From contig NC_091987.1 in assembly GCF_044704955.1 (NCBI RefSeq), positions 188,790,001 through 188,854,000 on the forward strand: a DNA stretch of 64,000 bases. Direction: 5' to 3'. The translations under genes and the position numbers were made by a program. This stretch comes from Pristiophorus japonicus. Lineage: Eukaryota. Under the pieces are notes generated by a model. That model was not told where the DNA came from, searched no databases, and saw only the letters and a list, made by a program, of their open reading frames with translations. This document shows, one piece after another, positions 30,418 through 51,655 of the stretch. Numbering within the stretch: the first letter of the stretch is position 1; every line of letters starts with the position of its first letter.

Positions 30418-31099
30418 AAAAGGAAGTGGGGTAGCTCTATTAATAAAGGATGTGATCAGTGCACTGGTGAGAAATTATATTGGCTCAGAAGATCAAGATG
30501 TAGAATCAGTTTGGGTGGAGATAAGGAATATTAAAGGGAAGAAGTCACCAGTGGGCATAGTCTATAGGCCCCCTAACAGTAGCTACATTGTTGGACGGAG
30601 TATAAATCAAGAAATAATCGAGGCTTGTAAAAAAGGAACGCAATAATCATGACCGATTTTTCGTATTGATTGGTGAAATCAAATTGGCCAAGGTAGCCTT
30701 GAGGGAGAATTCATAGAGTTTATTCAGGATAGTTTCCTTGAACAATACATTGAGGAACCAACCAGGGAGCAAGTTATCTTAGATTTTGTACTGTGTAATG
30801 AGACAGGATTAATAAATGATCTAGTAAAGGATCCTCTTGGAAAGAGTGATTATAGCATGGTTGAATTTCAAATTCAGTTGGAGGGTGAGAAAGTTGGATC
30901 TCAAACTTTAGCTTCAGCTTAAATAAAGGAGGCAGAGTTGGCTAAAGTGAACTGGGAAAACAGATTAAAGTGTGAGACAGTTGATGAGCTGTGGCGGATA
31001 TTTAAGGAGATATTTCATAACTCTCAACAAAAATATATTCCAATGAGAAGGAAAGATTATAAGAGAAGGGATAACCATCCATGGCTAACTAAACAAATT

Positions 31100-31255
31100 A
31101 AGAACATAAGAACATAAGAAATAGGAACAGGAGTCGGCCATATGGCCCCTGGAGCCTGCTCCGCCATTTAGTATGATCATGGCTGATCCGATCATGGACT
31201 CAGGTCCACTTCCCTGCCCGCTCTCCATAACCCCTTATTCCCTTATCGGTTAAGA
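31100..31255 (-). mobile_element. Short CR1 3' end inserted antisense into the larger CR1
   Basis: (AAGAACAT)n tail and CR1 3' UTR; TTAAGAA on both sides is a likely TSD. Confidence 0.8.
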
Positions 31256-33884
31256 ATGGTATCAAATTGAAAACAATGGCATATAAAGTGGCCAAGATTA
31301 GTGGGAGTCCAGAGGATTGGGAAACTTTTAAAAACCAGCAAAGAACGACTACAAAAATAATGAGAGGGAAGATAGATTATGAAACTAAACTCGCAAGAAA
31401 TATAAAAACAGACAGTAAGAGTTTCTACAGATATATAAAAAGGAAGAGAGTGGCTAAAGTAAATGTTGGTCCTTTGGAGGATGAGACTGGGGAATTAATA
31501 ATGGGGAACAGGGAAATGGCAGAGACTTTGAACAAATATTTTGTATTGGTCTTCACGGTAAAAGACACTAAAACATGACAATAATGGATAACCAAGGGAG
31601 GAACTTAAAATAATCACCGTCACTAAAGAAGAAGTACTCAGTTAAATAATGGGACTAAAGGTGGACAAGTCCCCTGGACCTGATGGCCTGCATCCTAGGG
31701 TCTTAAAAGAAGTGGCTGCAGAGATAATGGATGCATTGGTTGTAATCTACCAAAATTCCCTGGATTCTGGGGAGGTCCCAGCAGATTGGAAAACTGCAAA
31801 TGTAACGCCCCCTATTTAAAAAAGGAGGCAGACAGAAATCAGGAAACTATAGACCAGTTAGTCTAACAGCTGTCATTGGGGAAAATGCTGGAATCCATTA
31901 TTAAGGAAGCAGTAGCAGGACATTTGGAAAAGCTTATTTCAGTCAAGCAGAGTCAGCATGGTTTTATGAAAGGAGAAATTACATTTGGCAAATTTGCTGG
32001 AGTTCTTTGAGGATGTAATAAGCAGGGTGGATAAGGGGGTACCAGTGGATGTGGTGTATTTGGATATCCATTTTATAAGGTGCCACATAAAATGTTAATG
32101 CACGAGATAAAAGTTCATGGGGTTGGTGGTAATATATTAATTAGCATGTATGGAGGATTGGCTAACTAACAAAAAACAGAGAGTTGGGATAAATGGCTCA
32201 TTTTCCAGTTTGCAAACAATAACTAGTGGGGTGCCACAGGGATCAGTGCTGGGACTTCAACTATTTACAATCTAAATTAATGATTTAAATGAAGAGGCAG
32301 AGTGTAATGTAGCCAAGTTTGCTGATGATACAACGATGGGTAGGAAAGCAAGTTGTGAGGAGGACACAAAAAATCTGCAAAGGGATATAGATAGGCTAAG
32401 TGAGTGGGCAAAAAATTGGCAGATGGAGGATAATGTGGGAAAGTGTGAGGTTATCCAGTTTGGCAGAAAAAAACCCCAAATTATTATTTACAAATTAACA
32501 AAATGCTGCAGTACAGAGGGGCCTGGGGATTCTTGTGCATGAAACACAAAAGTTAGTATGCAGGTACAGCAAGTAATCAGGAAGGCAAATAGAATGTTGG
32601 CCTTTATTGCAAAGGGGATGGAGTATAAAATACGAGATGTCCTGCCACAAGGGTATTGATGAGGCCACAGCTATAGTACTGTGTACAGTTTAGTCTCCTT
32701 ATTTAAGGAGGGATATACTTGCATTGGAGGCAGTTCAGAGAAGGTTCATTTGGTTGATTCCTGAGATGAAGGGGTTAACTTATGGAGAAAGGTTGAGCAA
32801 TTTGGACCTGTACTCATTGAGTTCAGAAGAATGAGAGGTGATCTTATTGAGACATATAAGGTAATGAGGAGGTTTGACAAGCTAGGTAAAAAGAGGATGT
32901 TTCCACTCGTGTGGGAATCTACAACTAGGGGGCATAGTTTTTGAATAAGGGGTCTCTGATTTGATGAGGAGGAATTTCTTCTCTCAGAGGGTTGTAAATC
33001 TGTGGAATTCTCTGCCCCAGAGAGCTGTGGAGGCTGAGTCATTGAATATATTTAAAGCAGAGATAGACAGATTTTTGAGTGATAAGGGAGTAAAGGGTTA
33101 TGGGGAGCAGGAAGGGAAGTGGAGTTGGGCCCATGATCAGATCAATCATGATCCTATTGAATGGCGGAGCAGGCTCAAGGGGCCAAATGACCTATTCCTG
33201 CTTCTATTTCTTACGTTATGTTCTTATGAGTATAAAGGGCACCTATGCTGTGAAATAGATGGTAGTTGAACTTTAGATGACAGAAGCGATCTGTCAATGG
33301 TGAGAAAGGTAATGAGGGGGTCACTGGATGGAGACTTGTGTTAAGATTTGCAACAAGGTGAATCTGTTGTGGAAATGCAGTGAGGAAGAGCTTGTGGCTG
33401 AGGGAAGATATCTCTGTAAGGTGGGAGCTTTTACTTGACATTTGTAGCTGTCAACACATCAGCTGATTCAACGGCCACTGACCTTACGCCTTTGATACCT
33501 TTCCAATCTTCTCCAGACTTACATCATAGCCTATGTCCTTTGATCCACCAATCATGACCTCTTGTTCATGCCCCCCCCCCCGCCCCCCCCATTTATATTC
33601 TTATATTCCATTGTTGCAAAGCCTTCATCCACTCTCTGTACTCTATTGATAAATCTCTCCACCCTACTACATCCTAACTTTTTTTTATTACTGCTTGGTG
33701 TACATGCTGTGAAATTCCTTAGGAGTTTTTATTACATTAAAGGCAAATTGTTGTTGGCAGTGATGTCATCATTTTTGCTGTAATGCATTAGGGAGTCAGA
33801 TCGCTAGCGTGTCTCCTGAGTTATATTGGTATTTTGGCATTAAGGCGCACAAAATAAATCTGCTGCCTACTGACTGTTGCCCAT

Positions 33885-34078
33885 CCTCCGGAAGTTTCTA
33901 CCGTGGATGGTGCTTTGGTTACTGGACATCAGTCCACCTGCTCTGCTAAAGGTTTCTACTCTGAGAATATCTCTTTTAAATGGCCAGATCATGGAACAAG
34001 CCTTTCTAACATCACTACACTGACTACAAAAAATGCTGGTGGTGGTACATCTATTGTCACCTAAAGTGGGAGACCACA
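33885..34078 (+). pseudogene. Degenerate duplicate (pseudo-exon) of the C1-like exon
   Basis: PPEVSTVDGALVTGHQS-TCSAKGFYSENISFKWPDHGTSLSNITTLTTKNAGGGTSIVT* aligns with exon 3. It has deletions, a stop and no upstream AG acceptor. Confidence 0.88.
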
Positions 34079-34430
34079 AACAGTCCATAGGGGATCTAGA
34101 GTGACATTAGTGTAATTATCCAACAGATATTTTGTTTCATCTATCTTTTGATCAAGAGGAAAGGGTGATTTAGCTACCGATGTGACTCTATTTTATCAAA
34201 ATAACAGGTGGTGCATGAAAGTAAGGCAAAGTGTATTTTCATTTGGAATTAATGATACATTCAGCAAAAAATTATTTTACATTATAATACACAATACATG
34301 TTCAGAATAGTGGCACTAAGAATCCCTGATAATGTTGCCAATCATATCGATGCACAAGATGTTAATAAATGTTCACAGAGCAGGATAAGGCTTTATGGGT
34401 TCATACATTATGTTTTCTGCTCTGTCTCAG

Positions 34431-34733
34431 GACCTCCTGAAGTTTCTACTGTGGATGGTGCTTTGGTTGCTGGACGTCGTTCCAACCTGACCTGCTCTGC
34501 CAAGGGATGGTACTCTGAGGGTATCTCCTTTACCTGGGCATGCCATGGAACAAACATCTGCACAAACGTCATCACACTGACCTCGAAAAGAACTGGTCAT
34601 GGTACATCTGTTGCCACCAGCCAGCTTGAGATCGTCCCTAAAGTGAGTGACCATGGATCTGTCTGTAGCTGTCAGATCAACCATGTGACTTTCAGACAGC
34701 CAGTAATAAATGAGATCAAATTGCATGTTATGT
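34431..34733 (+). CDS. Ig receptor exon 3: C1-like constant domain
   Basis: Acceptor TCTGTCTCAG|, then LTCSAKGWYSEGISFTW..SQLEI..CQINHVTF, donor T|GTGAGT. 303 nt, phase 1-1. Confidence 0.9.
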
Positions 34734-35392
34734 GTGAGTATTATCCGCAATATTATTGTCATTTTCAGAAATGTTTTAGAGCATAAGGTATAAGAAAAAT
34801 GCTCACTGGCCAATTAGCAATTCCTTTTTCGTCTGTGGTTTTCAACTGTCAGCTTGGTTCTGCTCGAAGCGCTTTCACCTCTTTATGAGAAGTTTGAGGT
34901 TTTGAACTGCACGCCATAATCTAGACCGACCCTCGCATGCAATACTAAGAATGTACCACATTGCTGGTGGTGGTGTTCTTCGGGTATGTTAAACCAAGTT
35001 CCTGGCTATTGGTTCAGGTGGATCTTGAAGACCCCTTGGGCTAGAACCTGCACTTTTGTGGTTATCGTTTCTGGCGTAGGCATTAAAAAAGGGTTTTCAG
35101 ATCGTCGGTGTAAAGTCCTGTCCCCTCAGTACAGAATCACACGAGGCATGTAGTGAAGTCAAGGTCACTCTGGACCTGCACCTTTTATTTCACAGCTCTG
35201 GAATGCTACACTTGCCTGAGACCTGTCCTTATATACCTGTCTCTTGCAAGTGCACCCCCGGTGGTAAGGTATGCTGGTGGTTACAGGTCATATCTTATTA
35301 CAGTCATGTATAGCATGTTGGGATACAGTTATATATAATAATGTAAGATACATGACATCACCCTCCCCCAAGGTCTTATTGTCGTTATAGGT

Positions 35393-38300
35393 TCAGTCTC
35401 TCAGGTGGTCTACACTCTCGCGTGGAGCGTCTGAGTTGTGGTTCAGTTGTTTGCCTTGGTGTCTGTTTTTCTTTGGGTGTGGTTGCTGGTATCTCGCCTG
35501 GGCTGTCTGTTTCGATTGGTGTGATTGTTGTGATTGTTGTGACTCGCCTGGGCTGTCTGTTGGGATTGCCCTTTCCTCAGGTTGTTCCCTCTGTCTGTCC
35601 ACCAGGTATGGTGCGAGTTCCACATTGTAGTCTGCCTCTGGTTCCGCAGTGCTGTTGGTAAATCTGCTTTTGACTTGGTCTACATGCCTCCGGCAGGTTT
35701 TGCCATTGTCCATTTGTACTACCAGTAGCCTGTTTCCTTCCTTGCCCGTTACTGTCCCTGCAAGCCATTTGGGACACCTGCCATAGTGTAATACAAACAC
35801 TTTGTCCCCTATCTCATTCAATCTCCCCCTTGAATTTCTGTCATGGTACTCAGTCAGCTTACGGCGCTTTGCCTCAACGATTTCGTGCATGTCTGGGAGG
35901 ATTAATGAGAGCCTTGTTTTTTAAAATCCTTTTCATCAACAGTTGCGCGGGGGCGATCCCAGTCAGTGAGTGTGGATGAGATCTGTATGCCAACAGCAGT
36001 CGCGACAGGCGACTCTGCAGCGTGGGACCTTGGATTTTAAGCATGCCTTGTTTAATGATTTGCACTGCTCTCTCCGCCTGGCCATTGGAGGCCGGCTTGA
36101 ACGGTGCCGTCTTGACGTGATTTATGCCGTGGTCAATTATAAAGTCTTGGAATTCTGCGCTGGTGAAGCACGGACCATTGTCACTGACCAATATGTCAGG
36201 GATTCCATGCATTGCAAACATGGTTGCGAGGCTCTCCACAGTGGTGGAGGTTGTGCTCGAGTTTAAAATGGTGCATTCGATCCACTTTGAAAATGCATCT
36301 ACAACTACGAGGAACATTTTGCCTATGAATGGGCCTGCATAGTCTACGTGCACCTGCGACCACGGTTTGGTAGGCCATGGCCAGGGGCTCAGTGGAGCCT
36401 CCCTGAGGGCATTGCTGAGTTGGGCACAAATGGTGCATCTTCGGACGCAGAGCTCCAAGTCCGCATCAATACCAGGCCACCAGACGTGGGATCTGGCTAT
36501 GGCCTTCATGAGAACGATCCCCGGGTGCTCGCGGTGGAGCTTCTGGACAAATGCCTCTCTGCCTCACAGAGGCATGACTACTCGGCTGCCCCATATCAGG
36601 CAGTCTGCTTGTAGTGATAGCTCATGCATGCGCCTGTGAAAGGGTTTTAATTCCTCTGGACAGGCATCGCGAGCCTCTGCCCAGTCACCTGTTAGGACAC
36701 ATCTTTTTACTAAGGATAACGTGGGGTCGCTGGCCGTCCAGGCTCTGATTTGGCGAGCCGTCATGGGCGAACCTGTGGACTCAAAAGCATTGATTGCCAT
36801 GACTATCTCACAGTCCTGGTCGTCAGACCCTTCCGTGGTCGCCAGGGGTAGCCTGCTGAGCGCGTCGGCACAGTTGTCTGTGCCTGGTCTGTGCCTTATG
36901 GTATAGTCGTAGGACGCCAGCATGAGTGCCCACCGTTGAATTCGCGCCGAGGCGTTGCCGTTTATTGCCTTGCTCTCGGATAGGAGGGAGGTGAGGGGCT
37001 TGTTGTCGATTTCTAACGTGAACTTGGCCCCGAAAAGGTATTGGTGCATCTTTTTGACACCGTACACGCACGCGAGCACCTCCTTCTCTACCATTCCGTA
37101 CCCGCGCTCCGCCCTTGAAAGTGACCTGGAGGCATAAGCTATGGGTTGTAATTTTCCCGCACTATTGACATGTTGCAAAACGCACCCGACCCCATACGCT
37201 GATGCATCGCATGTGAGAACTAGCTTTTTACCTGGGTCAAAGAAAGTCAAAACACTGTTGGAACACAGAAGGTTGCGTGCCTTATTGAAGGCGCGTTCCT
37301 GGGTGTCCCCCCAAAACCAATCGCATCCCTTCCTGAGTAGCATGTGGAGAGGCTCCAGCAGCGTGCTTAAGTTCTGCATAAAGTTCCCAATGTAATTGAA
37401 TAGCCCGAGAAAGGCGCGCAGTTCTGAGAAATTCCGGGGCCTGGGTGCCAGGCGAATTGCTTCTGTTTTGGACTCTGTTGGGCGGATTCCATCAGCGGCA
37501 ATCCTTCTGCCCAAAAATTCAACCTCGGGTGCAAGAAACAGGCACTTGAATTTCTTGACTCGTAGGCCTACCCGATCCAACCGCTCTAGTACTTCCTCCA
37601 AATTACGGAGATGGGAGTCGGTGTCCCTGCCCGTGATAAGTATGTCGTCTTGAAATACAACTGTCCCCGGATGGACTTGAGCAGACTCTCCATGTTGCGC
37701 TGGAATATGGCAGCTGCCGACCTGATGCAGAATGGGCATCGATTGTACATGAAAAGGCCTCGATGTGTGTTGATGGTGGTGAGTAGCTTGGATTCCTCGG
37801 TCAATTCTTGCATCATATACGCAGATGTGAGGTCTAATTTTGAGAAAAGTTTACCTCCAGCCAATGTGGCAAATAAGTCCTCCGCTCTGGGCAGCGGGTA
37901 CCAGTCGTGTAGGGAGACTCTGTTTATGGTAGATTTGTAGTACACACAGATTCGTACGGATCCATCAGGCTTCATGACTGGGACGATGGGACTTGCCCAG
38001 TCGCTAAACTCCACAGGTGATATAATGCCTTCCCGCAGAAGCCTGTCTAGTTCATGTTCAATCTTTTCCCTCATCACAGAGGGTACAGCTCTGGCCTTGT
38101 GATGGACCCGTCTAGCATCCTGTGTGATGTAGATTTTGACTTTGGCCCCTTTGAAAGTGCCCACACCTGGCTGAAAGAGATGTTCAAATCGCTTTATAAC
38201 TGTTGAGCAGGAGGTCCGTTCCTCTAATGACATGGCATGGACATCATCCCATTTCCAGTTTAGTTTTGCCAGCCAGCTTCTCCCCAGCAGTGCTGGGGGG

Positions 38301-39494
38301 TCTCCGGGAACAATCCACAAGGGAAGTCGGTTCACTGTCCCTTTGTGTGTGACAGAGAGCATGGCGCTGCCGAGGACTGGTACGATTTCTTTGGTATAGG
38401 TCCTTAGTTTGGTGTCGACCCTTGTGAGTTTTGGTCTGTCTCTTTTATGTGGCCACAGTTGTTCAAATTGTTGAGCACCCATGAGAGATTGACGCGCTCC
38501 TGTATCCAGCTCCATGTTGACAGATATCCCATTGAGTACGACCGTCATCATTATCGGAGGCATCCTGTTGTAGGAGCAGCGGCCATTGATCGTGTTGACC
38601 CACTGTACATCGGTGTCCCGGGTTCTGTCCCCACCATCTTCTGGTCCGCTTTCCGACCCATCCGATTCGTATACCAGCTGAGCTGCCGTTTTTTTGCTCA
38701 TGCGGGCCAAATGCCCTGTATATTCACAATTTCTGCAAACAGCCTGCTGAAATCGACATCCCCTTGATGAGTGCCCACCCCCACACCTCCAGCACAGACC
38801 TGTTCCATTGTTCAAAGTGTTCCCAAAGAATGAGCTGCGTCTGGCTGATCTCTCTTGAGCTTGTAGTTGATTGCTCGCATTGTGGGTTGATGAGTTGTGA
38901 ACGGCCATTCCTGTGGCCCTTGATGGGTTCTGCCTGCTGTCGAGAGCCTGTTCTCCCGGTTTTGTCTGTGTTTGGGGGTAGCAGCTTGTTTAGTGCTGTG
39001 AACTCCTTGTTCCGATATTTCGTTAGTTGTCATACCTGCATTGTAAATCAACCTCGTTTCTTCTTCCCCTACCAAGAATGTCTGTGCAACCAGTGCTGCT
39101 GCCTCTAAGGTCAGGTTCTTGGTCTCTCTGAGCTTTCGGAATATGCCTGCGTGGCCTATTCCTTCAATGAAAAAGTTTCTCAGCATTTCTCTCCTCAGTT
39201 CATCGGAGAACTCACATAAACTAGCCAACCTCCGAAGTTCCGCCACAAAGTCGGGTATGCTCTGGCCCACACAATGTCTGTAGTTGTAGAACCTGTGTCT
39301 GGCCATATGTAGGCTGCTCGCTGGCTTCAGGTGGTCTCTTACCAGTGTGCTCAATTCTTACCAGTGGGCTCTTCTCTTGTCTGCCTTATCGTCGCCTAAC
39401 CAGTCTTTGGTTACAAAGCTTTGCTGGAGCCTTTTTATAAAGTCCTCCCAATTGTCTCCCGCATTGTACTTTTCATCTGATCCGTTGTTCGCCA
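35393..39494 (-). pseudogene. Frameshifted gag-pol of the complete Gypsy unit
   Basis: Gag with CCHC knuckles, protease LDTG, RT VVFQDD, RNase H CDASAYGVG and integrase HVDYAGP/SDNG/SNGQAER, spread over several frames. Confidence 0.92.
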
Positions 39495-39530
39495 TTCTGT
39501 GGATTCTGTAATCCCATAACTCGTCGCCAC

Positions 39531-42093
39531 TGTAAAGTCCTGTCCCCTCAGTACAGATTCACACGAGGCATGTAGTGAAGTCAAGGTCATTCTGGACCTG
39601 CACCTTTATTTCACAGCTCTGGAATGCTCCACTTGCCTGAGACCTGTCCTTATATACCTGTCTCTTGCAAGTGCACCCCTGGTGATAAGGTATGCTGGTG
39701 GTTACAGGTCATATCTTATTACAGTCATGTATAGCATGTTAGGATACAGTTATATATAATAATGTAAGATACATGACATCACCCTCCCCCAAGGTCTTAT
39801 TGTCGTTATAGGTTCAGTCTCTCAGGTGGTCTACACTCTCGCGTGGAGCGTCTGAGTTGTGGTTCAGTTGTTTGCCTTGGTGTCTGTTTTTCTTTGGGTG
39901 TGGTTGCTGGTATCTCGCCAGGGCTGTCTGTTTCGATTGGTGTGATTGTTGTTGACTTGCCTGGGCTGTCTGTTGGGATTGCCCTTTCCTCAGGTTGTTC
40001 CCTCTGTCTGTCCACCAGGTGTGGTACAAGTTCCACATTGTAGTCTGCCTCTGGTTCCGCAGTGTTGTTGGTAAATCTGCTTTTGACTTGGTCTACATGC
40101 CTCCGGCAGGTTTTGCCATTGTCCATTTGTACTACCAGTAGCCTGTTTCCTTCCTTGCCCGTTACTGTCCCTGCAAGCCATTTGGGAGAACTGCCATAGT
40201 TTAGTACAATCACTTTGTCCCCTATCTCATTCCATCTCCCCCTCGAATTTCTGTCATGGTACTCAGTCAGCTTACGGCGCTTTGCCTCAATGATTTTGTG
40301 CATGTCTGGGAGGATTAATGAGAGCCTTGTTTTTAAAGTCCTTTTCATCAACAATTGCATGGGGGGGATCCCAGTCAATGAGTGCGGACGAGATCTTTAT
40401 GCCAGCAGCAGTCGCGACAGGCGACCCTGCAGCATGGGACCTTGGATTTTAAGCATGCCTTGTTTAATGATTTGCACTGCTCTCTCTGCCTGGCCGTTTG
40501 AAAGAGCTCTCCATTTAGTGCCACTCCCCGGCTCTTTCCCCAAAGTTCTGAAAATATTTCCTTTTCAAGTATATTTCCAAGGTACTATTGAATCTGCTTC
40601 CACCAGTCTTTCAGGCAGTGCGTTCCAGATCATAACAATTTGTTGTTTAAAAAGAATTCTCTAATTTCCCCCCTGGTTCTTTTACCTATAACCTTAAATC
40701 TGTGCCCTCTGGTTACCAATCCTCCTGCCAAAGGTAAAGGTTCCTCCCAATCTATTCTGTCAAAACCTCATATAAATTTGAACACCTCTATTAAATCTCA
40801 CCTTAACCTTCTCTGCTTTAAGGAGAATAATCCCCGCTTCTCTAGTCTGTCCTCATAAGTGAAATCCCTCATCCCTAGTACCATTCTATTAAATCTTGAT
40901 ATAACCTTGAAAAGGCCTTGATATCCTTCCTGAAATGTGTTGAACAGAATTGGACACAATACTCCAGCTGAGGCCGAACCAGTGATTTATAAAGGTTCAC
41001 CATAACTTTATTCATTTTGTACTACACACTTCCCTTTATAAAGTCAAGGATTCGTATGTTTTTTTAACAGCTTGACTGTTTTTAGTGATTATATCAATCC
41101 AATAGAGAGGGCACGTTTACATTGTTACACCAGTCCAATATAATGGATTTGACTGAGAACCAAATTAGTTCCACTGGGTCTTTCAATGCCAGCCTTGATA
41201 AACAGTCATGATTAGACTCTGTAAATGAAACATGAACAATTTTAGACACAATTTCTGGAGTTTTTGCTCAAGTTCAGTGAGCAATTGGAAAATAAGTAGT
41301 TAGCTGTACTTAGTTTATGCATTTGCGAGTTGTATTAACCCAGGGAGCTTCCTGTGAGCTGTTCTGCTGCGTGTTTAAGTTGACCATATTATAACATGTC
41401 TACTGCGGGCTGGAAGCTTGTCCTCAACAACTGCTTTTTTTGGACTGTTGGTGTGCATTTTGCAGCCTGTCATTCACTCAGTGGTTATGTTACCCTGGAG
41501 TCCCTAAGCAACATGTTCCAGTCACTGTTCAGGATGGTATGAGAACACTTTCAGTAAATATTCTCAAACTGCTTCAGTCTCACTTTGGTTGCCATCGGCT
41601 CATCTCTAAGGCGTAAGACTTCCTCTGGTTCTGGCACATCAGTGAGCATAGGAATAGGAGTAAGCCATTCAGCCCATCAAGCCGGTTACCCTAGGAGCAG
41701 GTGTAGGCCATTCAGCTCCTCAAGCTTGTTACCATAGGAGCAGGAGTAGGCCATTCAGCCCCTCGAGTTTGTTACCATAGGAACAGGAGTAGGCCATTCT
41801 TCCCCTCGAGCCATAGGAGCAGGAATAGGCCATTCAGCCCCTCAAGCCTGTTCCGCCATTCAATGAGGCCACAACTGATCTGTAGCTTAACTCCATCTAC
41901 CTGCAGTTTATACGTGTACACAGGGATCTCTCTTTATGGAGCAGAGAGCAGTGAAAGCAGGATTTTAGCTGCACTTTTACTGCAACATTTGATATTTCTG
42001 TTGCTAGTTAGTCTATTTACCAGAAGAATAGTCACCTAGAGACTAAAGGGGGTGGATTGCCACGAGTTTCTCTCGTTCATCCATCATAACCTC
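39531..42093 (-). repeat. Inverted copy of 17316-19816 (VNTR has 5 units here, at 41646-41852)
   Basis: Reverse-complement match including the same CR1/integrase junction. The 86-bp length difference in the non-LTR part equals two 43-bp units. Confidence 0.95.
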
Positions 42094-42353
42094 ATAAAAA
42101 CATAAGAACATAAGAACATAAGAACATAAGAATTAGGAACAGGAGACGGCCATCTAGCCCCTCGAGCCTGCTCCGCCATTCAATAAGATCATGGCTGATC
42201 TGGCCGTGGACTCAGCTCCACTTACCCGCCCGCTCCCCGTAACCGTCAATTCCCTTATTGGTTAAAAATCTATCTATCTGTGACTTGAATACCTCAATGA
42301 GCTAGCCTCAACTGCTTCCTTGGGCAGAGAATTCCACAGATTCACAACCCTCT
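42094..42353 (-). mobile_element. Short CR1 3' end, antisense arm of the head-to-head pair
   Basis: (CATAAGAA)n tail and ~230 bp that are the reverse complement of 44333-44571. Confidence 0.9.
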
Positions 42354-44571
42354 TAAACAAAGGGGACTACAGTGGGATGAGGGCAGAGTTGGCTAAAGTA
42401 GACTGGAAATACAGACTAAACGGTCGCACAATTGAGGAACAGTGGAGGACTTTTAAGGAGCTCTTTCATAGTGCTCAACAAAAATATATTCCAGTGAAAA
42501 AGAAGGACGGTAAGAGAAGGGATAACCAGCCGTGGATAACCAAGGAAATAAAGGAGAGTATTAAATTAAAAACCAATGCGTATAAGGTGGCCAAGGTTAG
42601 TGGGAAAAAAGAAGATTGAGAAAATTTTAAACGACAGCAAAGAATGACTAAGAAAGCAATAAAGAAAGGAAAGACAGATTACGAAGGTAAACTTGCGCAA
42701 AACATAAAAACAGATAGTAAAAGCTTTTACAGATATATAAAACGGAAAAGAGTGACTAAAGTAAATGTTGGTCCCTTAGAAGATGAGAAGGGGGATTTAA
42801 TAATGGGAAATGTGGAAATGGCTGAGACCTTAAACAATTATTTTGCTTCAGTCTTCACAGTGGAAGGCACAGAAACCATGCCAGAAATTGCTGGTCACAG
42901 GAATGTGGGAAGGGAGGACCTTGGGACAATCACTATCACTAGGGGGGTAGTGCTGGACAGGCTAATAGGACTCAAGGTAGACAAGTCCCCTGGTCCTGAT
43001 GAAATGCATCCCAGGGTATTAAAAGAGATGGCGGAAGTTATAGCAGATGCATTCGTTATAATCTACCAAAATTCGCTGGACTCTGGGGAGGTACCAGCAG
43101 ATTGAAAAGCAGCTAATGTAACAACTCTGTTTAAAAAAGGGGGCAGACAAAAAGCAGGTAACTATAGCCCGGTTAGTTTACCATCTGTAGTGGGGAAAAT
43201 GCTTGAAACTATCATTAAGGAAGAAATAGCGGGACATCTAGATAGGAATAGTGCAATCAAACAGATGCAGCATGGATTCATGAAGGGGAAATCATGTTTG
43301 ACTAATTTACTGGAATTCTTTGAGGATATAACCAGCATGGTGGATAGAGGTGTACCGATGGATGTGGTGTATTTAGATTTTCAAAAGACATTCGATAAGG
43401 TGCCACACAAAAGGTTACTGCAGAAGATAGAGGTACGCGGAGTCAGTGGAAATGTATTAGCATGGATAGAGAATTGGCTGGCTAACAGAAAGCAGAGAGT
43501 CGGGATAAATGGGTCCTTTTCGGGTTGGAAATCGGTGGTTAGTGGTGTGCCACAGGGATCGGTGCTGGGACCACAACTGTTTACAATATACATAGATGAC
43601 CTGGAAGAAGGGACAGAGTGTAGTGTAACAAAATTTGCAGATGACACAAAGATTAGTGGGAAAGCGGGTTGTGTGGAGGACTCAGAGAGGCTGCAAAGAG
43701 ATTTGGATAGGTTAAGCGAATGGGCTAAGGTTTGGCAGATGGAATACAATGTCGGAAAGTGTGAGGTCATCCACCTTGGGGAAAAAAAACAGTAAAAGGG
43801 AATATTATTTGAATGGGGAGAAATTACAACATGCTGCGGTAAAGAGGGACCTGGGGGTCCTTGTGCATGAATCCCAAAAAGTTAGTTTGCAGGTGCAGCA
43901 GGTAATCAGGAAGGCGAATGGAATGTTGACCTTCATTGCGAGAGGGATGGAGTACAAAAGCAGGGAGGTCCTTCTGCAAATATATAGGGCATTGGTGAGG
44001 CCGCACCTGAAGTACTGCGTGCAGTTTTGGTCACCTTACTTAAGGAAGGATATACTAGCTTTGGAGGGGGTACAGAGATGATTCACTGGGCTGATTCCGG
44101 AGATGAGGGGGTTACCTTATGATGATAGATTGAGTAGACTGGATCTTTACTCATTGGAGTTCAGAAGGATGAGGGGTAATCTTATAGAAACATTTAAAAT
44201 AATGAAAGGGATAGACAAGATCGAGGCAGAGAGGTTGTTTCCACTGGTCGGGGAGCCTAGAACTAGGGGGCACAGCCTCAAAATACGGGGGAGCCAATTT
44301 AAAACCGAGTTGAGAAGGAATTTCTTCTCCCAGAGGGTTGTGAATCTGTGGAATTCTCTGATCAAGGAAGCAGTTGAGGCTAGCTCATTGAATGTATTCA
44401 AGTCACAGATAGATAGATTTTTAACCAATAGGGAATTAAGGGTTATGGGGAGCGGGCGGGTAAGTAGAGCTGAGTCCACGGCCAGATCAGCCATGATCTT
44501 ATTGAATGGTGGAGCAGGCTCGAGGGGCCAGATGGCCTACTCCTGTTCCTAATTCTTATGTTCTTATGTTC
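42352..44571 (+). mobile_element. 5'-truncated, relatively young CR1 LINE (RT domain to tail)
   Basis: KSPGPDEMHPRVLKE, QHGF, GVPQGSVLGP, KFADD and RRMRGNLIE, with a TTCTTATG tail and a few stops. Confidence 0.95.
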
Positions 44572-45953
44572 TTTATAACTGTTGAGCAGGAGGTCCGTTC
44601 CTCTAATGACATGGCATGGACATCGTCCCATTTCCAGTTTAGTTTTGCCAGCCAGCTTCTCCCCAGCAATGCTGGAGGATCTCCGGGGACAATCCACAGG
44701 GGAAGTCAGTTCATTGTCCATTTGTGTGTGACAGAGAGCATGGCACTGCCGAGGACTGGTACAATTTCTTTGGTATAGGTCCTTAGTTTGGTGTCGACCC
44801 TTGTGAGTTTTGGTCTGTCTCTTTCAAGCGGCCACAGTTGTTCAAATTGTTGAGCGCCCATGAGAGATTGACTCGCTCCTGTATCCAGCTCCATGATGAC
44901 AGATATCCCGTTGAGTAGGACCCTCATCATTATTGGAGGCGTCCTGTCATAGGAGCAGCGGCCATTGATAGTGTTGACCCGCTGTACATCGGTGTCCCGG
45001 GTACTGTCCCCACCGTCTTCTGGCCCGCTTTCCGACCCATCCGATTCGTATACCAGCCGAGCTGCCGTTTTTTTGCACATGCGGGCCATATGCCCTGTAT
45101 ATTCACAGTTCCTGCAAACAGCCTGCTGAAATCGACATTCCCTTGATGAGTGCCCACCCTCACACCTCGAGCATAGACTGCTTGCAAAGAATGAGCTGCG
45201 CCTGGCTGACCTCTCTTGAGCTTCTCTCAGTTTGTAGTTGATTGCTCGCATTGTGGGTTGATGAGGTGTGAATGGCCGTTCCTGTGGCCCTTGATGGCTT
45301 CTGTTGCCACTGCTTGCTGTCAAAAGCCTGTTCTGCCGGTTTTGTCCGTGTGTGGGGATAGCAGCTTTTCTAATGCTGTGAACTCCTTGTTCCATTATTT
45401 CATTAGTTGTCGTACCTGCATTGTAAATCAACCTCGTTTCTTCTTCCCCTACCAAGAATGTCTGTGCAACCAGTGCTGTTGCCTCTAAGGTCAGATTCTT
45501 GGTCTCTATGAGCTTTCGGAATATGCCTGTGTGGCCTATTCCTTCAATGAAAAAGTCTCTCAGCATTTCTCTCCTCAGTTCATCGGAGAACTCACATAAA
45601 CTAGCCAACCTCCGAAGTTCCGCCACGAAGTCGGGTATGCTCTGGCCCACACAACGTCTGTAGTTGTAGAACCTGTGTCTGGCCATTTGTCGGCTGCTCG
45701 CTGGCTTCAGGTGGTCTCTTACCAGTGTGCTCAATTCTTCAAATGACTTGCTTGCTGGTTTCTCGGGTGCCAACAGATCCTTCATTACAGTGTATGTTTT
45801 CGAGCCACAGCTGGTCAAGAGATGGGCTCTTCTCTTGTCTGCCATATCATCGCCTAACCAGTCTTTGGATACAAAGCTCTGGTGGAGCCTTTCTATAAAG
45901 TCCTCTCAATTGTCTCCCGCATTGTACTTTTCATTTGATCCGTTATTCGCCAT
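44572..45953 (-). pseudogene. Second gag-protease copy, truncated at the CR1 junction
   Basis: ORF 44706-45845 encodes gag, knuckles and LDTGAS; paralogous to 38193-39494. Confidence 0.9.
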
Positions 45954-46581
45954 TCTGTGGATTCTGTAATCCCGTAACCCGTCGCCACTGTAAAGTCCTG
46001 CCCCCTCAGTACAGATTCACACGAGGCATGTAGTGAAGTCAAGGTCACTCTGGACCTGCACCTTTTATTTCTCAGCTCTGGAATGCTGCACTTGCCTGAG
46101 ACCTGCCCTTATATACCTGTCTCTTGCAAGTGCACCCCGGTGGAAAGGTATGCTGATGGTTACAGGTCATATCTTATTACAGTCATGTATAGCATGTTGG
46201 GATACAGTTATATATAATAATGTAAGATACATGACAGTCGGCTTCTCGCCCATTCTTAAAGCACCTAGTTTCCACTTTTGAAAATGGGCGTTACCGCGAG
46301 CGATATAAAATGGGCGGTAGCGTGACATTTTTTTGCCCTTCTGCCATAAAGTGTGGCCATTCTTAGCAATGACATGGCAATGCTCGAGGTCAAGGGTCAT
46401 ATTGACATGCGCAGAAGAGGAGACAGAGAGAGAGGGAGCTCAGAGGGACTCAAGGCGTAGTGTGGCTACTTTGGGAGGAAAGGAGATAGACTTTAGAACT
46501 TCACAGCAATTAGGCAAACAAAAATTAGCTGTTACCAGCCAGATATTTGCCCGAATTTGGCCTATAATAGATAGAGAGGAA

Positions 46582-48390
46582 TTGGCATCACAGCACACTG
46601 TGGAGACTGATGCTGAAGAGAGCAGTGAGGTGGGAGAGGAGCACATTGGAGGGCGCAAAAGAGCCAGGAGGTTCTCGGATGAGGCAAATGCCTCCCTCCT
46701 GCAGGAGCTCGAGTTACGCTGGGGCGATTTGACACAGGGAGGGCATGGGACGCCCACCCCAAAGGCAAACCAGAAGATATGGACCGAGATAGCAGAGGTG
46801 GTCTCGTCGGCGACCAACGAGGTGTGTGAGGGCAACCAACGCCGCAAACGATGGAACGACCTTGTAGGATCCGCAAGAGTAAGTATTACATTTATTTACA
46901 TTACTTATGTATTTATATAATTTGATTTGTAACAGTCATGAGTGAGTATCATCAGATGTGAGGTCTTTCACTTTTACCGGGAATGGTTTACTCAAAGCCT
47001 GCAGTCACGGTGCACGTCTTTAGGTAAAGAATTATAATTATCATAACTGACAGATGTAATCATGATTATTATGTGTTGTATCAGTGTCCATGACAGTAGC
47101 TAGCAATGATATCACGCAATGATCTCATTCCATGTCGTCCTGTCCCCTTTTACAGAAGAAACTATCGACAATAAGGTCCGTGCAGAGGCGAATGGGTGGG
47201 GGGCCACCAGTCCCCAGCGACATCACTGACATGGAGGAGCGTGTGCTCACACTCGTAGTGAAGCAGCCACGGACGCATCTGCAGACCCTGAAGTGATATC
47301 ACGTGAGTAAAGCTTACACCATTGCGTGACGTAAAGTTAATACATGCTACACCGACTCCTATCCGAACAATCATATATGATAGATGATTTTTAAAATTGG
47401 CTATGAATACTGATGACCTAATGAAAATCATTGGAATGCAAATGTGTTGATGGTCATGAAATGTGATGTCTGTGATGATTTTGATAGTGGTGTTGCTTTT
47501 GTCGTGCATATGCTGTGTGTAGCACTGGAATCACCTTGTCACCCTAGCACCCCCTTCTCCTCTAATAACCTCATTTATGTTTTGCAGCTCAGCCAGCAGC
47601 GCGGCCCCAGGCAAGACCACAGAGGCCAGAAGGTGGGGATGTGGGATAGAAATCGGTGGACGATCCCACTACATCTGGTGCAGAGGAGGTTCGATTCTCA
47701 CCTGTCAATCCGCTGGGTCTGTTCTCCACGGATGAGAGCGCGGACTTCGAGGGACCTGCATTGCCATGCTCCAGAAGCTATTCCACCCCAAGGCCATCTA
47801 GTGGTCCTCCTGTCATGGCCGCCTCCACTCTGGAGGTATCGAGCCCAAGCACCTCGCCACAGGGTATCCCATTTATCCCCAGGATGGCGCCGACCCCGCA
47901 GAGGTCCTGTGGACGCGGCAGGTCTGTTCCACGAGTGCCACATGACAGCGGAGAGATGGTACAGTTGTCCAGGTGGACTGTAGACATTGGTAACCAGCTC
48001 ATTGAAGTATTGGGGGGGCATATCCCGACAGCTGGCCACCATCTCTGGCACCATGACCGAGTACATTCCGCGGATGGCGGAGTCCCTGGATAGCCAGGAA
48101 CACTGCTGGCACAGGCCTCCCAGTGGTCCCCGAGAGCAGCACTCCACCCCTAGGTTCCGCACCACCACTGCAAATGACAGATGAGACCAAGGACCAATAT
48201 CCTGCTACTGCACCAGAGAATGTTGCCCCCTCAGCACCCCCTGCTCCCGTACCTGTCCAATGACCGCATCTGCCTTCATCCCCCCCAATGAGGCACCGCC
48301 TGAGGAGCTCCTCGGCCAGGCACCGTGGAGCGAGGAGGGGAAGGGGTAGAGGTGGGGAGAAAAAGGGATGGGGGGGAAGGAAAGTGAGGT
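46582..48390 (+). pseudogene. Degenerate intron-containing Myb/SANT-like gene of the Harbinger element
   Basis: Exon 1 RKRARRFSD..W.EIAE.V..Q.RKRWNDL with donor at 46879. Exon 2 (47156-47302) KKL..RRMGGGPP..EERVL. Exon 3 starts at 47588. Frameshifts are present. Confidence 0.75.
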
Positions 48391-49875
48391 GCATGTCCGC
48401 AGGTGATGGTTGTGTTATATCTCCATCTGGGTGTATGCAATTTGTTGCAATGTATGGGGACTGGGGACCACGCTCCTACTTTGCCTTTGTATTCTGCTAC
48501 TGGACATGTTAAATATGACATTTATGTCAATGGTTGAAAAAGTGGGGTGTGGGCGGGGTTTGGGTGTTATTGCCTGTGATGCTTATGATTCCAGACCAAT
48601 ATTGGTATAAATTTTTGTTATTGAGCATAACCTTGTTACGCATTGTCTCAGATAGCTGTACCGTTACACTTTGGTGATTCCTTAACATGAAATGGTTAAA
48701 TACAACTTAACATCAATCAACATAAACTTTAACTGGCACCAAGGTGATGGGCACCATTGATGTATGAGCTGCACACACACAGCAATGTGTTAGCGTTGTC
48801 ACTCACATCAACGCTCTTTCAGGTAAATCATTCAGATATCAGCTCCTTACTCTTACGAGTGGGATTTTAAAAATGCCAAATATATTGCTGCCGTTCGTTC
48901 AAAATAGTTCCACTTTTTGTGGGTAGTTTATTGAGCGAGCGATATTGTGGGCGATATGTGTGTGAGGTGGTGAAATTGACGCTGGCCGATCTGCTGGGCG
49001 TTAGTTTCGGTAAATATGCTCTTCATGACAAAAAAAAATATTGAATCTCAGCGTTAAATCAGTACGGAAAGTAACGCTGGCCGATATTATGGACATTAAT
49101 TTCGCCCATTCTGATGATTCCGCCCCAAAAAAGTGAGCGGGCGATAATATTTTTTCCCGGCGTTCAGCACATACGGAAGGTAACGTTCGGCGATAAGTTT
49201 CCTAAAAAATGGGCATCAGTTTGCATTTTGTGCCTAAATGGGCGATATCTGTGAGTTTACATCATTTCAACGGTAAACTGGGCGTTGAGCATGCAAAAAA
49301 AGTGCAGGTTCTAGCCCCGTGGCTCTATTTGAGGAAAAACAGGGAGTTACCCAGTGTGCTGATCAATATTCCCCCTAGCAGCCCATACCATCAGTAAAAT
49401 CATTAACTACTTGCTCACCTCATGCCTGGTTTGGAACACCTCTGCCGCTTTCAACCATTTACTCTAAAAACATCACTCATTTTGTGATGTGCTTTGGAAA
49501 CATCCTGTTATTTAAATGCAAGTGTGATCATAATATTATTTACTAACTTAGCTCTCTATTTTACCAATGCTACTATGGACTGAACTCTTCCCCCTTGTTA
49601 CTTCTAAGCTGAAAATATGACATTCTGCAAACACTTCCTTTTACCCATACCTTCTGTGTTGAAATCAAACCCCATTGCATTGTCCCTTACTCGAACTCTG
49701 TCTCAGCCAAGACCTCCAAATTGTACAACATCTCAGATTTCTTTTCCTCTCACAATCTTCAGGCATTTAAAATCAAAGCTGGGCCTCAGTTGACCTGACT
49801 TAACCTCATCTACACTTTTCAACCTTGCTCATGTTCTACACTTGGGGCCTTGATCCTTCAACCATCAATCATCCC

Positions 49876-51655
49876 AGAAGGGGAAGGGGGGTGGAGGGGA
49901 AGGGAAAGTGGGGGGAGGAGAAGGGGGGAAAGGAGAAGGGGAAGGGGGGAGAAGAGAAGGGGAAGGAGAGGGGGGAGGGAAAGGAGAAGGGGGGGAAAGG
50001 AGAAGTGGGGGGGAAAGGAGAATGGGGTGGGGAAGGAAAAGGGGGAGGGAGGCTGAACGGGCCGGGACCAGCCGGGCCCAGGACTTCGGGCAGGGCCCAT
50101 CCCCAGCACCAGATTTACAGGTAGGTGGCGTTGGGTCGGGTCGGGTCCTGGGTCCGGGGTCGGGAGCGCGGGTCGGGTCGGGGGGAGCGCGGATCGGGGT
50201 CGGGGGGGGCGGAGGGAGGTTGGGTTGGGGTCCAGTCCGGGGGGGGGGGGTGCGGTCGGGAGCACGGGTCGGGTCAGGGTGGGGGGGGGAAGAGGGAGGT
50301 CGGATTGGTTTGGGTAGGGAGGGAGCGCGGGTCGGGTCGGGTCGGGGGGGGCGGGGGGGCAGAGGGAGGTCGGGTTGGGTCAGGTCAGTTCGTGTCGGGG
50401 GCGGGGGGAGGGAGGTCATGTTGGGTCGGGTCCGGTCCGGGTGGCGGGGGGGGGTCTGGAGCGCGGGTCGGGTCGGTGGGGTGGTGGGAGGGAGGTCGGT
50501 TCGGGTCGGTTGGGGGGGGAGGAGGGAGGGAGAGGGAGGTCAGGTCGGGTCGGGGGGTGGAGTGCGGGTCGGGTCCAGTCCGGGGGGTCGGATCCGGTCC
50601 GGTCCTGGGGTGGGGGGGGGCAGGGGTCGGGTCGGGGCCGGGTCCGGTCCGGGGGTGGGGGGGGGGCGGGGGAAGTGGGAGTCGAGTCGGGTCGGGAGGA
50701 AGCAGGAGCTGGGTGTGGGAGGAGCCTTATGCACGCAGCCCCAGTGAGGCCATTCGGCCAGGGCTAGGGGCTGTGTGCTTCGGGCCCCTCCCACACAGTT
50801 TTGGGCGCCTGGAGCTACTGCACATGCGCGCTCACTGTAACGCGCATGTGCAGAGGTCCCGGCACTGTTTTCAGCGCAGGGACCTGGCTCCACCCCCCCA
50901 CAGCTCGTGCTGCACCGAGCCCGACTCCAGAGGACCAGCAGGGAGCCAGAGAATCTGTAAGTTTTTTTTAGGCGCACTTTGTGGCACGAAAAACGGGCGT
51001 CCAGGTCGGGGCTGCGCCGTTCTAGGCGTGGCCCGAAACTTGGGCCCATTGACACTGACAGACAGAGAGAGAGACACTGACACTGACAGACAGACAGAGA
51101 GAGAGACACACACACTGGGAGGGAGCGGGGCGCCCATCCCAGCACGCTGTTGGAGGTTTCCCGGTGCTGCAGTCAGTGAGTAGAAAATGTTTTATTTATT
51201 GATTTTGAAATTTTTTTAATTAATTTTTTTTGATTGATTTATTGGTTGATTTATTGATGTATTTATCATTTATTATTGATGATGGCTCTTTATTTGTAAA
51301 ACTGAAGTGCTGAATGTTTGTAAACTTCCCTTTAAATCCCCCCCCCCCCCATTCCCTCCACCTGATTTGTAACCTACGCCTGATTTTCTAAGTGTAGGCA
51401 AGGTTTTTCTGAGCGTACAAAAACCTACACTTACTAAGTTAGTTTGGAATAAGTTTTCACTGCCTAAACTTTAAAAACAGGTGTAAGTGGCCGGACACAA
51501 CCCCTTTTGAAAAAAAAAATTGTTCCAAAGTGAAACTGTTCTATCTGACTAGAACTGGAGCAAACTAAATGCCGAGAATTGCAATTTATAAGATACTCCA
51601 TTCTAAACCAGTTGCTCCAAAAAAACAGGAGCAACTCAGGCTGAAACTTGGCCCC
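49876..51655. mobile_element. Rearranged copy of the G-rich MITE family seen at 58103-59993
   Basis: 49876-51047 matches the right part in + orientation, and 51051-51655 matches the left part in - orientation. Confidence 0.85.

What the first reader, a model, noticed from the sequence alone, without database searches (positions are those of the whole stretch)
35109..46236. Three-LTR retrotransposon composite carrying captured host DNA under one TSD
Seen, minus-strand order: LTR-gag-pro | CR1 pair | ~1.6 kb of non-Gypsy DNA | integrase end-PPT-LTR-PBS-gag-pol-PPT-LTR, with GTCGG on both outer sides. The outer LTRs share variants (CCTTTTATTT, TGTTGGGATAC) absent from the middle LTR. The middle LTR shares ATGCTCCACTT with the copy at 19702-19816. 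The two gag copies look more diverged than the duplicated block. Inference: a block from a second element was recombined into an existing insertion (one-LTR circle, unequal crossover or template switch). The cargo unit retains LTRs, PBS and PPT and could be mobilised in trans.
Basis: partly seen in the sequence, partly recalled or inferred. Interest (0 to 1): 0.7.

Follow-up and report, generated by a model that had tools for sequence, protein, structure and literature searches.

The report
LINE-bridged inverted duplication inside retrotransposon
In this shark genome a Gypsy retrotransposon holds an upside-down second copy of DNA from about 20 kb away, joined to it through two head-to-head CR1 retroelement pieces, which likely marks an inherited rearrangement stitched by CR1 reverse transcription rather than a mobile element that captured host DNA.

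Summary
The anatomy is real: three LTRs, one genuine target-site duplication (GTCGG; the host repeat is continuous across it in 11 of 11 other copies), two gags, a CR1 pair and 1.6 kb of non-Gypsy DNA. But the 'cargo' is not a travelling passenger. With the integrase end and LTR beside it, it is an inverted copy of window 17316-19816 and was found nowhere else in the genome. The outer parts belong to one Gypsy sublineage (alpha), the middle LTR, gag and copied integrase end to another (beta). The two CR1 pieces are joined at their truncated 5' ends, with a tail at each new junction, the form of the two-L1 bridges described at somatic inversions in human tumours (0 of 37 control CR1 5' ends look so). 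Best reading: a local DNA rearrangement with one CR1-made junction and one homologous return through Gypsy pol. Three-LTR tandems are ordinary here (6 others among 22 loci). No sign of mobilisation. Reads of one sample hold both copies' alleles but the new junctions were not seen spanned. Modest interest, mainly as a likely germline CR1 version of a two-LINE bridge.

The parts
35104..35108 (+). Left copy of the 5-bp target-site duplication GTCGG
   Evidence: single copy in 11 of 11 other copies of the host repeat
35109..35357 (-). 3' LTR of the original (alpha) Gypsy insertion
35358..36088 (-). Integrase end and PPT, alpha at 35993 and 35652, with a short patch (35414-35384) of alleles shared with the two local beta copies
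36089..38192 (-). RT-RNase H-integrase core, broken; holds the inferred beta-to-alpha crossover, which cannot be placed more finely
   Evidence: Pfam RVT_1, RT_RNaseH, rve in separate frames; one weak marker only
38193..39530 (-). PBS-gag-protease of sublineage beta, broken
   Evidence: 13 of 14 marker columns beta; beta clade 100/100
39531..39778 (-). Middle LTR, beta, preceded by PPT and followed by PBS; shares a rare allele with the LTR remnant at 19.7 kb
39779..40499 (-). Integrase end and PPT, beta; sister of 18996-19701
   Evidence: tree 99/97; 5 shared private alleles
40500..42093 (-). Block H: inverted copy of non-coding DNA at 17316-18995 (unique DNA, a 43-bp tandem array, old CR1-like pieces)
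   Evidence: no Rfam match, no ATG ORF over 58 aa wholly inside
42094..42353 (-). CR1 piece 2, 5'-truncated, (TTCTTATG)n tail abutting the first base of H
42352..44573 (+). CR1 piece 1, 5'-truncated, tail abutting Gypsy protease end (3 shared bases); joined to piece 2 at the 5' ends with 2 shared bases
   Evidence: Pfam RVT_1; junctions
44571..45988 (-). PBS-gag-protease of sublineage alpha, cut off at the protease/RT border
   Evidence: 14 of 14 marker columns alpha
45989..46236 (-). 5' LTR of the original (alpha) insertion
46237..46241 (+). Right copy of the target-site duplication
17316..18995 (+). Donor copy of block H, running on from unique left flank with no CR1 tail
   Evidence: junction crossed by contigs in two runs
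18996..19816 (+). Remnant of a beta Gypsy element (G1): integrase end, a deletion of PPT and the first half of the LTR at a 3-base microhomology, LTR second half ending exactly at the LTR's last base
35038..49317 (.). Older repeat with terminal inverted repeats and a Myb/SANT frame (likely PIF/Harbinger-type; label recalled) into which the Gypsy element inserted
22989..54231 (+). Host Ig-superfamily gene (leader about 22989-23058 read by eye, V 23763-24111, C 34431-34732, third Ig exon 52594-52920, last matched piece 54112-54231); the composite lies antisense in the intron after the C exon

Best explanation
The composite is one alpha Gypsy insertion split at its protease/RT border by a block made of two head-to-head CR1 pieces, an inverted copy of DNA from 20 kb away and a beta LTR-gag, and it was likely formed at the DNA level when two CR1 reverse transcripts, primed at two sites, joined each other and homologous recombination in Gypsy pol closed the other side. 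Steps. (1) Shown: an alpha element (G2) sits in an older repeat with a true TSD; a beta remnant (G1) lies 15 kb away in the opposite orientation, joined to host block H. (2) Shown: one CR1 tail abuts G2's protease end, the other abuts the first base of the H copy, and the two pieces meet at their truncated 5' ends. Inferred: both were primed by target-primed reverse transcription at about the same time and their cDNAs were joined by microhomology, giving an inversion-type junction. (3) Shown: reading on from H the sequence is beta through integrase end, LTR, gag and protease, and alpha again by 35993. Inferred: the return to G2 was homologous, within pol, either in the same replicative repair or later between an inverted and a non-inverted chromosome; the product is the same. 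(4) Inferred, weakest: the beta LTR-gag came from G1 when it was still a beta/beta tandem, whose inner unit was later lost in the deletion at 19701 (about 0.5); a beta circle that had already recombined into G2 (about 0.3) or a further template switch are the alternatives. The block is a passive scar in an intron and has not spread.
For: Donor and copy: H plus integrase end occur at 17316-19701 and 39794-42093, inverted; no third place in genome searches. Direction: the copy begins at the base next to the CR1 tail, while the donor runs on into unique DNA with no tail and contigs of two runs cross that donor junction; G1's LTR ends exactly at its last base inside an older repeat. Two sublineages: 20 of 20 and 20 of 20 sampled copies split by a 9-bp and an 18-bp indel, gag_out and gag_mid fall on opposite sides. 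Bridge: tails at both outer junctions, 3 and 1 shared bases there, 2 at the 5'-5' join; 0 of 15 and 0 of 22 control CR1 5' ends are joined to an inverted tail-bearing piece; the two pieces differ by 4.6% and piece 2 has closer relatives elsewhere (1 private change in 229 bp), so two RNAs. Ages overlap: CR1 piece 1 has 6 private changes in 808 non-CpG sites (0.7%), the duplication 0.8% (H) and 1.1% (integrase end) per copy, G2's LTR pair 1.4% per copy. The same form, two 5'-truncated L1s in inverted orientation joined at their 5' ends with a tail each, is described at a somatic paracentric inversion (10.1101/2024.08.27.596794, passages) and two cDNA intermediates were shown to recombine in cells (PMC13526784, abstract and part of section 9). 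Local exchange: a 20-mer allele found 24 times against 5,042 for the common form is in all three local integrase ends. Tandem donors exist: 6 of 22 other internal-LTR loci are TSD-flanked three-LTR tandems, and in 6 of 6 loci with two typeable gags both are of one type.
Against: The reciprocal junction expected of an inversion (left flank at 17315 joined to G2's RT) is not in the window and was not seen in the reads. Only one junction of the pair is held, so the split target-site duplication cannot be checked. Age intervals are wide (LTR pair 0.6-2.9%) and do not prove synchrony. PMC13526784 found no induction with 0-6 bp of homology between cDNAs in its reporter, while this join has 2 shared bases. 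G1's own gag is gone, so its identity with the middle gag cannot be tested. pol has one weak marker, so the crossover is not mapped. At one of four LTR marker columns all three LTRs carry the state commoner in beta. The alpha and beta panels were picked as best hits of the two gags, and other gag types exist. No contig spanning the three new junctions was among those shown (tables cut).
Confidence: 0.55

Rival explanations
1. Same DNA-level inverted duplication, but sequential: CR1 piece 1 was an ordinary earlier insertion in G2, and a later break inside it was joined to H by a single CR1 priming event or by break repair with template switching (one-sided invasion, MMBIR).
For: Same end product. 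Proximal repair-mediated duplications into interrupted elements are common in vertebrates (PMC2671141, abstract and Results part 1 of 3). One homologous junction at inverted repeats plus one non-homologous junction is the DUP-TRP/INV-DUP pattern (PMC11293582, abstract and Introduction). A short inverted CR1 piece nested in an older CR1 is seen at 31103-31257.
Against: No 5' remainder of piece 1 is found at the matching place of the second unit, which is uninterrupted there. Piece 1 is about as young as the duplication. In the 39 proximal cases inspected in PMC2671141 none had a retroposition tail, and proximal copies were at most 619 bp.
Confidence: 0.27
2. RNA-level capture: Gypsy reverse transcriptase switched templates among an alpha RNA, CR1 RNAs and a read-through RNA of H-integrase end-LTR, and the chimera integrated and remains mobilisable in trans.
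For: The first unit has LTR, PBS, PPT and LTR around non-Gypsy DNA, like the chimeras in PMC5131818 (abstract and section 5). The whole is under one TSD.
Against: The LTRs bounding the cargo unit are of different sublineages (3.7% apart) and have no TSD of their own; one reverse transcription gives matching LTRs (established knowledge). Both new junctions carry CR1 tails and one CR1 is antisense to the Gypsy RNA. H is non-coding and the duplication looks no older than the TSD-bearing insertion. No further copy found.
Confidence: 0.06
3. Assembly artefact: two haplotypes, one inverted, were joined inside Gypsy pol, so H appears twice.
Against: Two alleles of the donor's left flank both run into H (X1 record 1 with 4 differences, X2 record 9 with none), so neither haplotype is broken at 17316. 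All 6 listed differences on copy B are copy A's letters and 12 of 12 comparable ones on copy A are copy B's. The H contig depth (21.5, 16.1, 7.15) is about 1.5-2 times that of neighbouring single-place contigs (9.9-11.5, 8.2-11.5, 4.2-5.7), though the tool warns that contig depth is no copy number. alpha and beta differ by 4-5%.
Confidence: 0.06
4. The composite is the original and the copy at 17316-19816 was derived from it by retrotransposition of the first unit, with later loss of its 5' part.
For: The 19816 end is an exact LTR end, as integrase would make; the left half of the repeat it sits in is missing from the window.
Against: The loss would have had to stop exactly at the tail-H junction; H would have no native site in the genome; none of the 6 LTR starts preceded by the matching 5-mer lies in that repeat or on this contig.
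Confidence: 0.03

Closest known systems
Two-L1 bridges at somatic inversions and translocations (10.1101/2024.08.27.596794; PMC13526784; 10.1101/2024.12.14.628481)
   Same: Two distinct 5'-truncated LINE pieces in inverted orientation, joined at their 5' ends, a tail at each outer junction, linking two distant breakpoints.
   Different: Here the LINE is CR1, the event is inherited and has aged about 1% per copy, the outcome is an inverted duplication with the donor site left whole, and no reciprocal junction is seen.
DUP-TRP/INV-DUP rearrangements (PMC11293582)
   Same: One homologous junction in inverted repeats, an inverted copied segment, one non-homologous junction.
   Different: Kilobase scale, repeats are 95%-alike retrotransposons, no triplication of unique DNA, the non-homologous junction is filled by LINE cDNA, and the repeated gag comes from another sublineage.
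Repair-mediated duplications of proximal DNA (PMC2671141)
   Same: Host DNA found at one other nearby place, inserted in an interrupted transposable element.
   Different: Longer (2.5 kb shared, 20 kb away, against at most 619 bp within 5 kb), with retroposition tails and a homologous Gypsy arm.
Tandem LTR retrotransposons under one TSD (PMC11899658)
   Same: Three LTRs, shared middle LTR between PPT and PBS, one outer TSD; 6 more in this family.
   Different: Those come from a single element; here the two units are of different sublineages and the first lacks RT, RNase H and most of integrase.
LTR-mediated retroposition (PMC5131818)
   Same: Non-element DNA replaces part of the internal region between LTRs.
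   Different: No mRNA hallmarks, bounding LTRs do not match, junctions carry CR1 tails, no further copies.

Membership tests
Ty3/Gypsy LTR retrotransposon | TG...CA LTRs, PBS, PPT, 4-6 bp TSD | tested here: met
Ty3/Gypsy LTR retrotransposon | Domain order protease-RT-RNase H-integrase | tested here: met
   Pfam hits in that order (protease below its curated cut-off)
Tandem LTR retrotransposon from one element | Three LTRs under one TSD | tested here: met
Tandem LTR retrotransposon from one element | Both units derive from the same element | tested here: not met
   alpha and beta gags; 6.2% apart
Two-LINE bridge (synchronous TPRT) | Two 5'-truncated pieces, inverted, joined at 5' ends, tail at each outer junction | tested here: met
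Two-LINE bridge (synchronous TPRT) | Outer junctions belong to two distant loci | tested here: met
   44571 and 17316
Two-LINE bridge (synchronous TPRT) | Two different source RNAs of the same age | tested here: inconclusive
   different closest relatives; ages overlap but intervals are wide
Two-LINE bridge (synchronous TPRT) | Reciprocal junction with split target-site duplication | tested here: inconclusive
   not in the window or the 200 kb of neighbours searched; it may have been lost by recombination
Two-LINE bridge (synchronous TPRT) | Endonuclease motif at both sites | not testable with these tools
   no CR1 cleavage motif for this family was available
LTR-mediated retroposition / mobile cargo element | Matching LTRs and own TSD around the cargo unit | tested here: not met
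LTR-mediated retroposition / mobile cargo element | Cargo derives from a transcript (exons joined, sense strand) | tested here: inconclusive
   no ORF or RNA family; no splicing difference between copies; no RNA data
LTR-mediated retroposition / mobile cargo element | Further dispersed copies | tested here: not met
   (one assembly; searches give lower bounds)
DUP-TRP/INV-DUP | Homologous junction in inverted repeats plus a non-homologous junction | tested here: met
   beta-to-alpha switch between 38569 and 35993; CR1 bridge
DUP-TRP/INV-DUP | Inverted triplicated segment inside a duplication | tested here: not met
   H is present twice, not three times; the DNA between is single

The most novel reading that the evidence does not exclude
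This is an inherited, germline example of two synchronous CR1 insertions recombining with each other to stitch an inversion-type junction, a mechanism so far described for somatic human L1; head-to-head, tails-outward CR1 pairs would then be fossil markers of LINE-made rearrangements in shark genomes.
Probability: 0.5. Interest if true: 0.55.

Novelty: new variant of a known kind. Interest (0 to 1): 0.37.

Why it matters
As a cargo-carrying mobile element it would have been a new gene-moving vehicle; that reading fails. What remains is a single, well-preserved rearrangement whose junction has the form of the two-LINE bridges recently found in cancer genomes, here with CR1 and in an inherited state, inside a small cluster of immune-type Ig genes. 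If such pairs recur genome-wide they give a simple sequence signature for LINE-driven inversions and duplications in a lineage where CR1 is abundant. My searches listed no CR1 or germline report of this form, but they were three narrow searches of a partial library. It is also a caution: non-element DNA between LTRs under one TSD need not be transduced DNA.

Tried and rejected
Gag duplicated from one element by a simple template switch: rejected, the gags are of two sublineages. The whole beta element 39 kb downstream (window-relative 84974-89717, own TSD) as donor of the middle gag: not closer than other beta copies in 400-bp windows, although it shares a few rare alleles with local pieces. 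G1's missing 5' end elsewhere: 6 LTR starts preceded by the matching 5-mer, none in the right repeat. A second pro-CR1 junction on another contig: chance match, no Gypsy DNA. Motif-based typing of tandem units proved unspecific for alpha and was redone by alignment; only one search is used for types. A genome-wide count of head-to-head CR1 pairs could not be run because the gap range was too wide; 37 sampled 5' ends were used instead. One sampled locus had a same-family inverted piece 600 bp away with unrelated DNA between, two ordinary insertions. Private-allele density along pol did not locate the crossover. No RNA holder was listed. Earlier findings of this scan: nothing returned. Rows dropped: 7 of 40 family copies lacked two LTRs at the right distance; 5 of 40 and 6 of 40 were left out of the pol and integrase-end alignments; outer junctions were printed for 12 of the 22 internal-LTR loci. 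Supplements were not read; the supplementary figure on single-bridge mechanisms in 10.1101/2024.08.27.596794 may bear on the mechanism.
Full report
Setting. The window is G000:C11:188790001-188854000 of a 5.9-Gb assembly. An Ig-superfamily gene runs on the plus strand; its V exon is 100% identical to a database protein that a source labels sialic acid-binding Ig-like lectin 13 of Pristiophorus japonicus, with relatives in other cartilaginous fishes. Exons map to 23763-24111, 34431-34732 and 52594-52920, with a close paralogue about 55 kb downstream and a distant one upstream. The composite lies antisense in the intron after the second Ig exon, inside an older repeat with terminal inverted repeats and a Myb/SANT frame.

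Observation. Self-comparison and the sequence confirm three LTRs (45989-46236, 39531-39778, 35109-35357), PBS after the first two, PPT before the last two, and GTCGG outside both ends. Pfam finds protease (below cut-off), RT, RNase H and integrase in the second unit, in separate frames, and a LINE-type RT in the long CR1 piece. In 11 of 11 other copies of the host repeat the left and right flanks are continuous with one 5-mer, so the outer ends come from one integration.

The cargo has a local donor. Block H (40500-42093), the integrase end and the second half of the middle LTR are all present, inverted, at 17316-19816. A search with 1.1 kb of H scored 40 of 12,239 candidates; only the two window copies cover its first 565 bases, the rest are 74-79% matches of an old CR1-like part. 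Searches across the donor's left end gave the same two places. The tool notes that such counts are lower bounds. The copies differ by 1.7% and 2.9% in the two parts of H and 3.1% in the integrase end, and the two integrase ends are sisters among 37 rows (99/97). The donor is the 17.3-kb copy: it runs on into unique DNA without a CR1 tail, the other copy starts at the base beside the tail, and the donor's LTR ends exactly at its last base in an older repeat whose left half, present in the 11 other copies viewed, is absent from the window. H has no Rfam match and no ATG frame over 58 aa wholly inside it.

Two sublineages. I took 20 of the 40 listed hits for each gag. They split without exception by a 9-bp and an 18-bp indel; the outer gag goes with alpha, the middle gag with beta (100/100; 14 of 14 and 13 of 14 marker columns). 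Both outer LTRs are alpha and the middle LTR beta at the two clearest of four marker columns; at one column all three carry the state commoner in beta. The copied integrase end is beta at 3 of 3 columns, the 3' integrase end alpha at 2 of 3. So an alpha element was split at the protease/RT border and the inserted block returns to alpha between 38569 and 35993; pol has one weak marker. The panels were chosen by likeness to the two gags, and other gag types exist.

Three LTRs are ordinary in this family. An LTR between PPT and PBS matches exactly 23 times in the genome, against about 5,000 copies carrying one common 20-mer. Of the 22 others, 6 have three LTRs or remnants under one TSD, and in 6 of 6 loci with two typeable gags both are of one type (one only partly typed). 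The alpha/beta mix here is the exception and needs recombination between elements. PMC11899658 (abstract and Discussion) describes such tandems in plants as coming from one insertion.

Local exchange. A 20-mer allele just before the PPT occurs 24 times against 5,042 for the common form, and 3 of the 24 are the three integrase ends of this window. The copied and the 3' integrase ends share 3 private alleles; none of 528 family pairs shares more than 2 there. This points to a short conversion patch in the alpha 3' end. A rare LTR allele (18 matches) is in the middle LTR and the donor's remnant, and elsewhere twice as a pair 4.4-4.7 kb apart, so it may have been in both LTRs of G1.

The CR1 pair is the junction. 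Piece 1 (42352-44573, plus) has its tail at the cut protease end with 3 shared bases; piece 2 (42094-42353, minus) has its tail at the first base of H with 1 shared base and a tail-like 8-mer next to it; they meet at their truncated 5' ends with 2 shared bases (run-on sequences). The CR1-CR1 junction occurs once in the genome. Among sampled young copies, 0 of 15 and 0 of 22 5' ends in view are joined to an inverted tail-bearing piece. The pieces differ by 11 of 241 bases and piece 2 has closer relatives elsewhere. Piece 1 has 0.7% private changes; the duplication dates to 0.8% (0.5-1.2) from H and 1.1% (0.6-1.8) from the integrase end, the alpha LTR pair to 1.4% (0.6-2.9) per copy. These fit the order insertion, then duplication with CR1, without proving it. 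Passages of 10.1101/2024.08.27.596794 (12 of 19 places) describe a tumour inversion with a bridge of two 5'-truncated L1s in inverted orientation joined at their 5' breakpoints, each with a tail. PMC13526784 (abstract, section 9 part 1) shows two cDNA intermediates recombining in cells, but not detectably with 0-6 bp of homology, which tells against or at least limits the comparison. 10.1101/2024.12.14.628481 (12 of 22 passages) reports inverted duplications beside L1 insertions.

Mechanism. Shown: anatomy, donor, direction, two sublineages, junction sequences. Inferred: two CR1 cDNAs primed at 44571 and 17316 joined each other; homologous recombination in pol between beta DNA linked to H and the alpha element closed the other side, in one replicative repair or later between inverted and non-inverted chromosomes. 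This is the logic of DUP-TRP/INV-DUP (PMC11293582, abstract and Introduction) and near the repair-mediated duplications of PMC2671141 (abstract, Results part 1 of 3), with LINE cDNA as the non-homologous joint. The source of the beta LTR-gag is open. A G1 tandem whose inner unit was later lost in the deletion at 19701 needs only known events and gives a long crossover target; a beta circle already in G2 would need a mixed tandem, of which none was seen among the 6 typed, and a crossover in the last 100 bp of the LTR. The nearby whole beta copy is not a closer match.

Reads. Four runs of one sample hold H; only Logan contigs are kept. Laid on the composite, all 6 listed differences in H are the donor's letters; laid on the donor, 12 of 12 comparable differences are the composite's letters. 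Two alleles of the donor's left flank both run into H. The H contig is about 1.5-2 times as deep as neighbouring single-place contigs, which the tool says is no copy number. Contigs spanning the three new junctions were not among the few shown. The sample may be the one assembled, so this is consistent with a real duplication but is not independent proof.

Mobility. The first unit keeps PBS and PPT, but its LTRs are of different sublineages and have no TSD of their own, and no further copy of H or of the junctions was found. The second unit has frame-breaking indels and stops. The chimeras of PMC5131818 (abstract, section 5) are mRNA pieces joined by microsimilarity, without LINE tails. Trans-mobilisation is untested and unsupported.

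Verdict. Observation confirmed; interpretation partly supported. A local LINE-bridged inverted duplication inside a Gypsy element: a new variant of a known kind, interest 0.37. Literature searches were made; searches listed no CR1 or germline case of a two-LINE bridge, which is weak evidence of absence. The labels CR1 and PIF/Harbinger are recalled from the tail, 3' end, inverted ends and Pfam hits, not from a repeat library.

Noticed in passing
window 22989-54231; G000:C11 window-relative 77815-95970 (L099-L101) and -48378 to -55907 (L112, L113): Small cluster of three Ig-superfamily genes (V, C, third Ig exon). The downstream paralogue is 89% identical in the V exon protein but 99% in the C exon, which may be conversion or selection on the V domain.
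   Followed up: partly
window 33885-34061: Degenerate partial copy of the C exon (75% DNA, 65% protein) 370 bp upstream of it.
   Followed up: no
window 21471-21539 and 22989-23058: The database model P0001 starts with repeat-derived pieces; a signal-peptide-like exon with a phase-1 donor at 22989-23058 looks like the real first coding exon.
   Followed up: no
L100 (window-relative 84974-89717): Whole beta Gypsy copy with its own TSD in the paralogue's intron; shares 2 rare alleles with the donor and copied integrase ends (3 of 528 family pairs do so) and a two-base change with the second unit's RNase H, unexplained.
   Followed up: partly
L136-L157: Most of the 22 internal-LTR loci are not clean tandems: several are circularly permuted or carry LTR pieces at their ends (autointegration-like), others have only a PPT or PBS overhang; most typed gags are beta.
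   Followed up: partly
window 44574-46236 against 35109-36088: The 5' part of the alpha element has about twice the private changes of its 3' part (28 of 1,526 against 8 of 896, one-sided p about 0.04).
   Followed up: no
window 17812-18515: Contigs of all three runs follow the composite's alleles at most sites of this stretch but the donor's alleles in 17316-17610, which may mean the second haplotype's donor copy is a mosaic.
   Followed up: no
window 34631-34991 (X1 record 8): A 589-bp contig leaves the assembly at 34991, 113 bp before the TSD; its other 228 bases were not shown. It may be the paralogue or another haplotype.
   Followed up: no
window 26001-30417: A second, different Gypsy element with 217-bp LTRs 94% alike, minus strand, in the intron after the V exon.
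   Followed up: no
window 30931-33228: An older CR1 with a short inverted CR1 3' piece (31103-31257) nested in it; looks like a head-to-head pair but the older copy continues on both sides.
   Followed up: partly
window 17557-17848 and 41647-41852: A 43-bp tandem array made from a CR1-like 3' end; unit number and order differ between the two copies of H.
   Followed up: no
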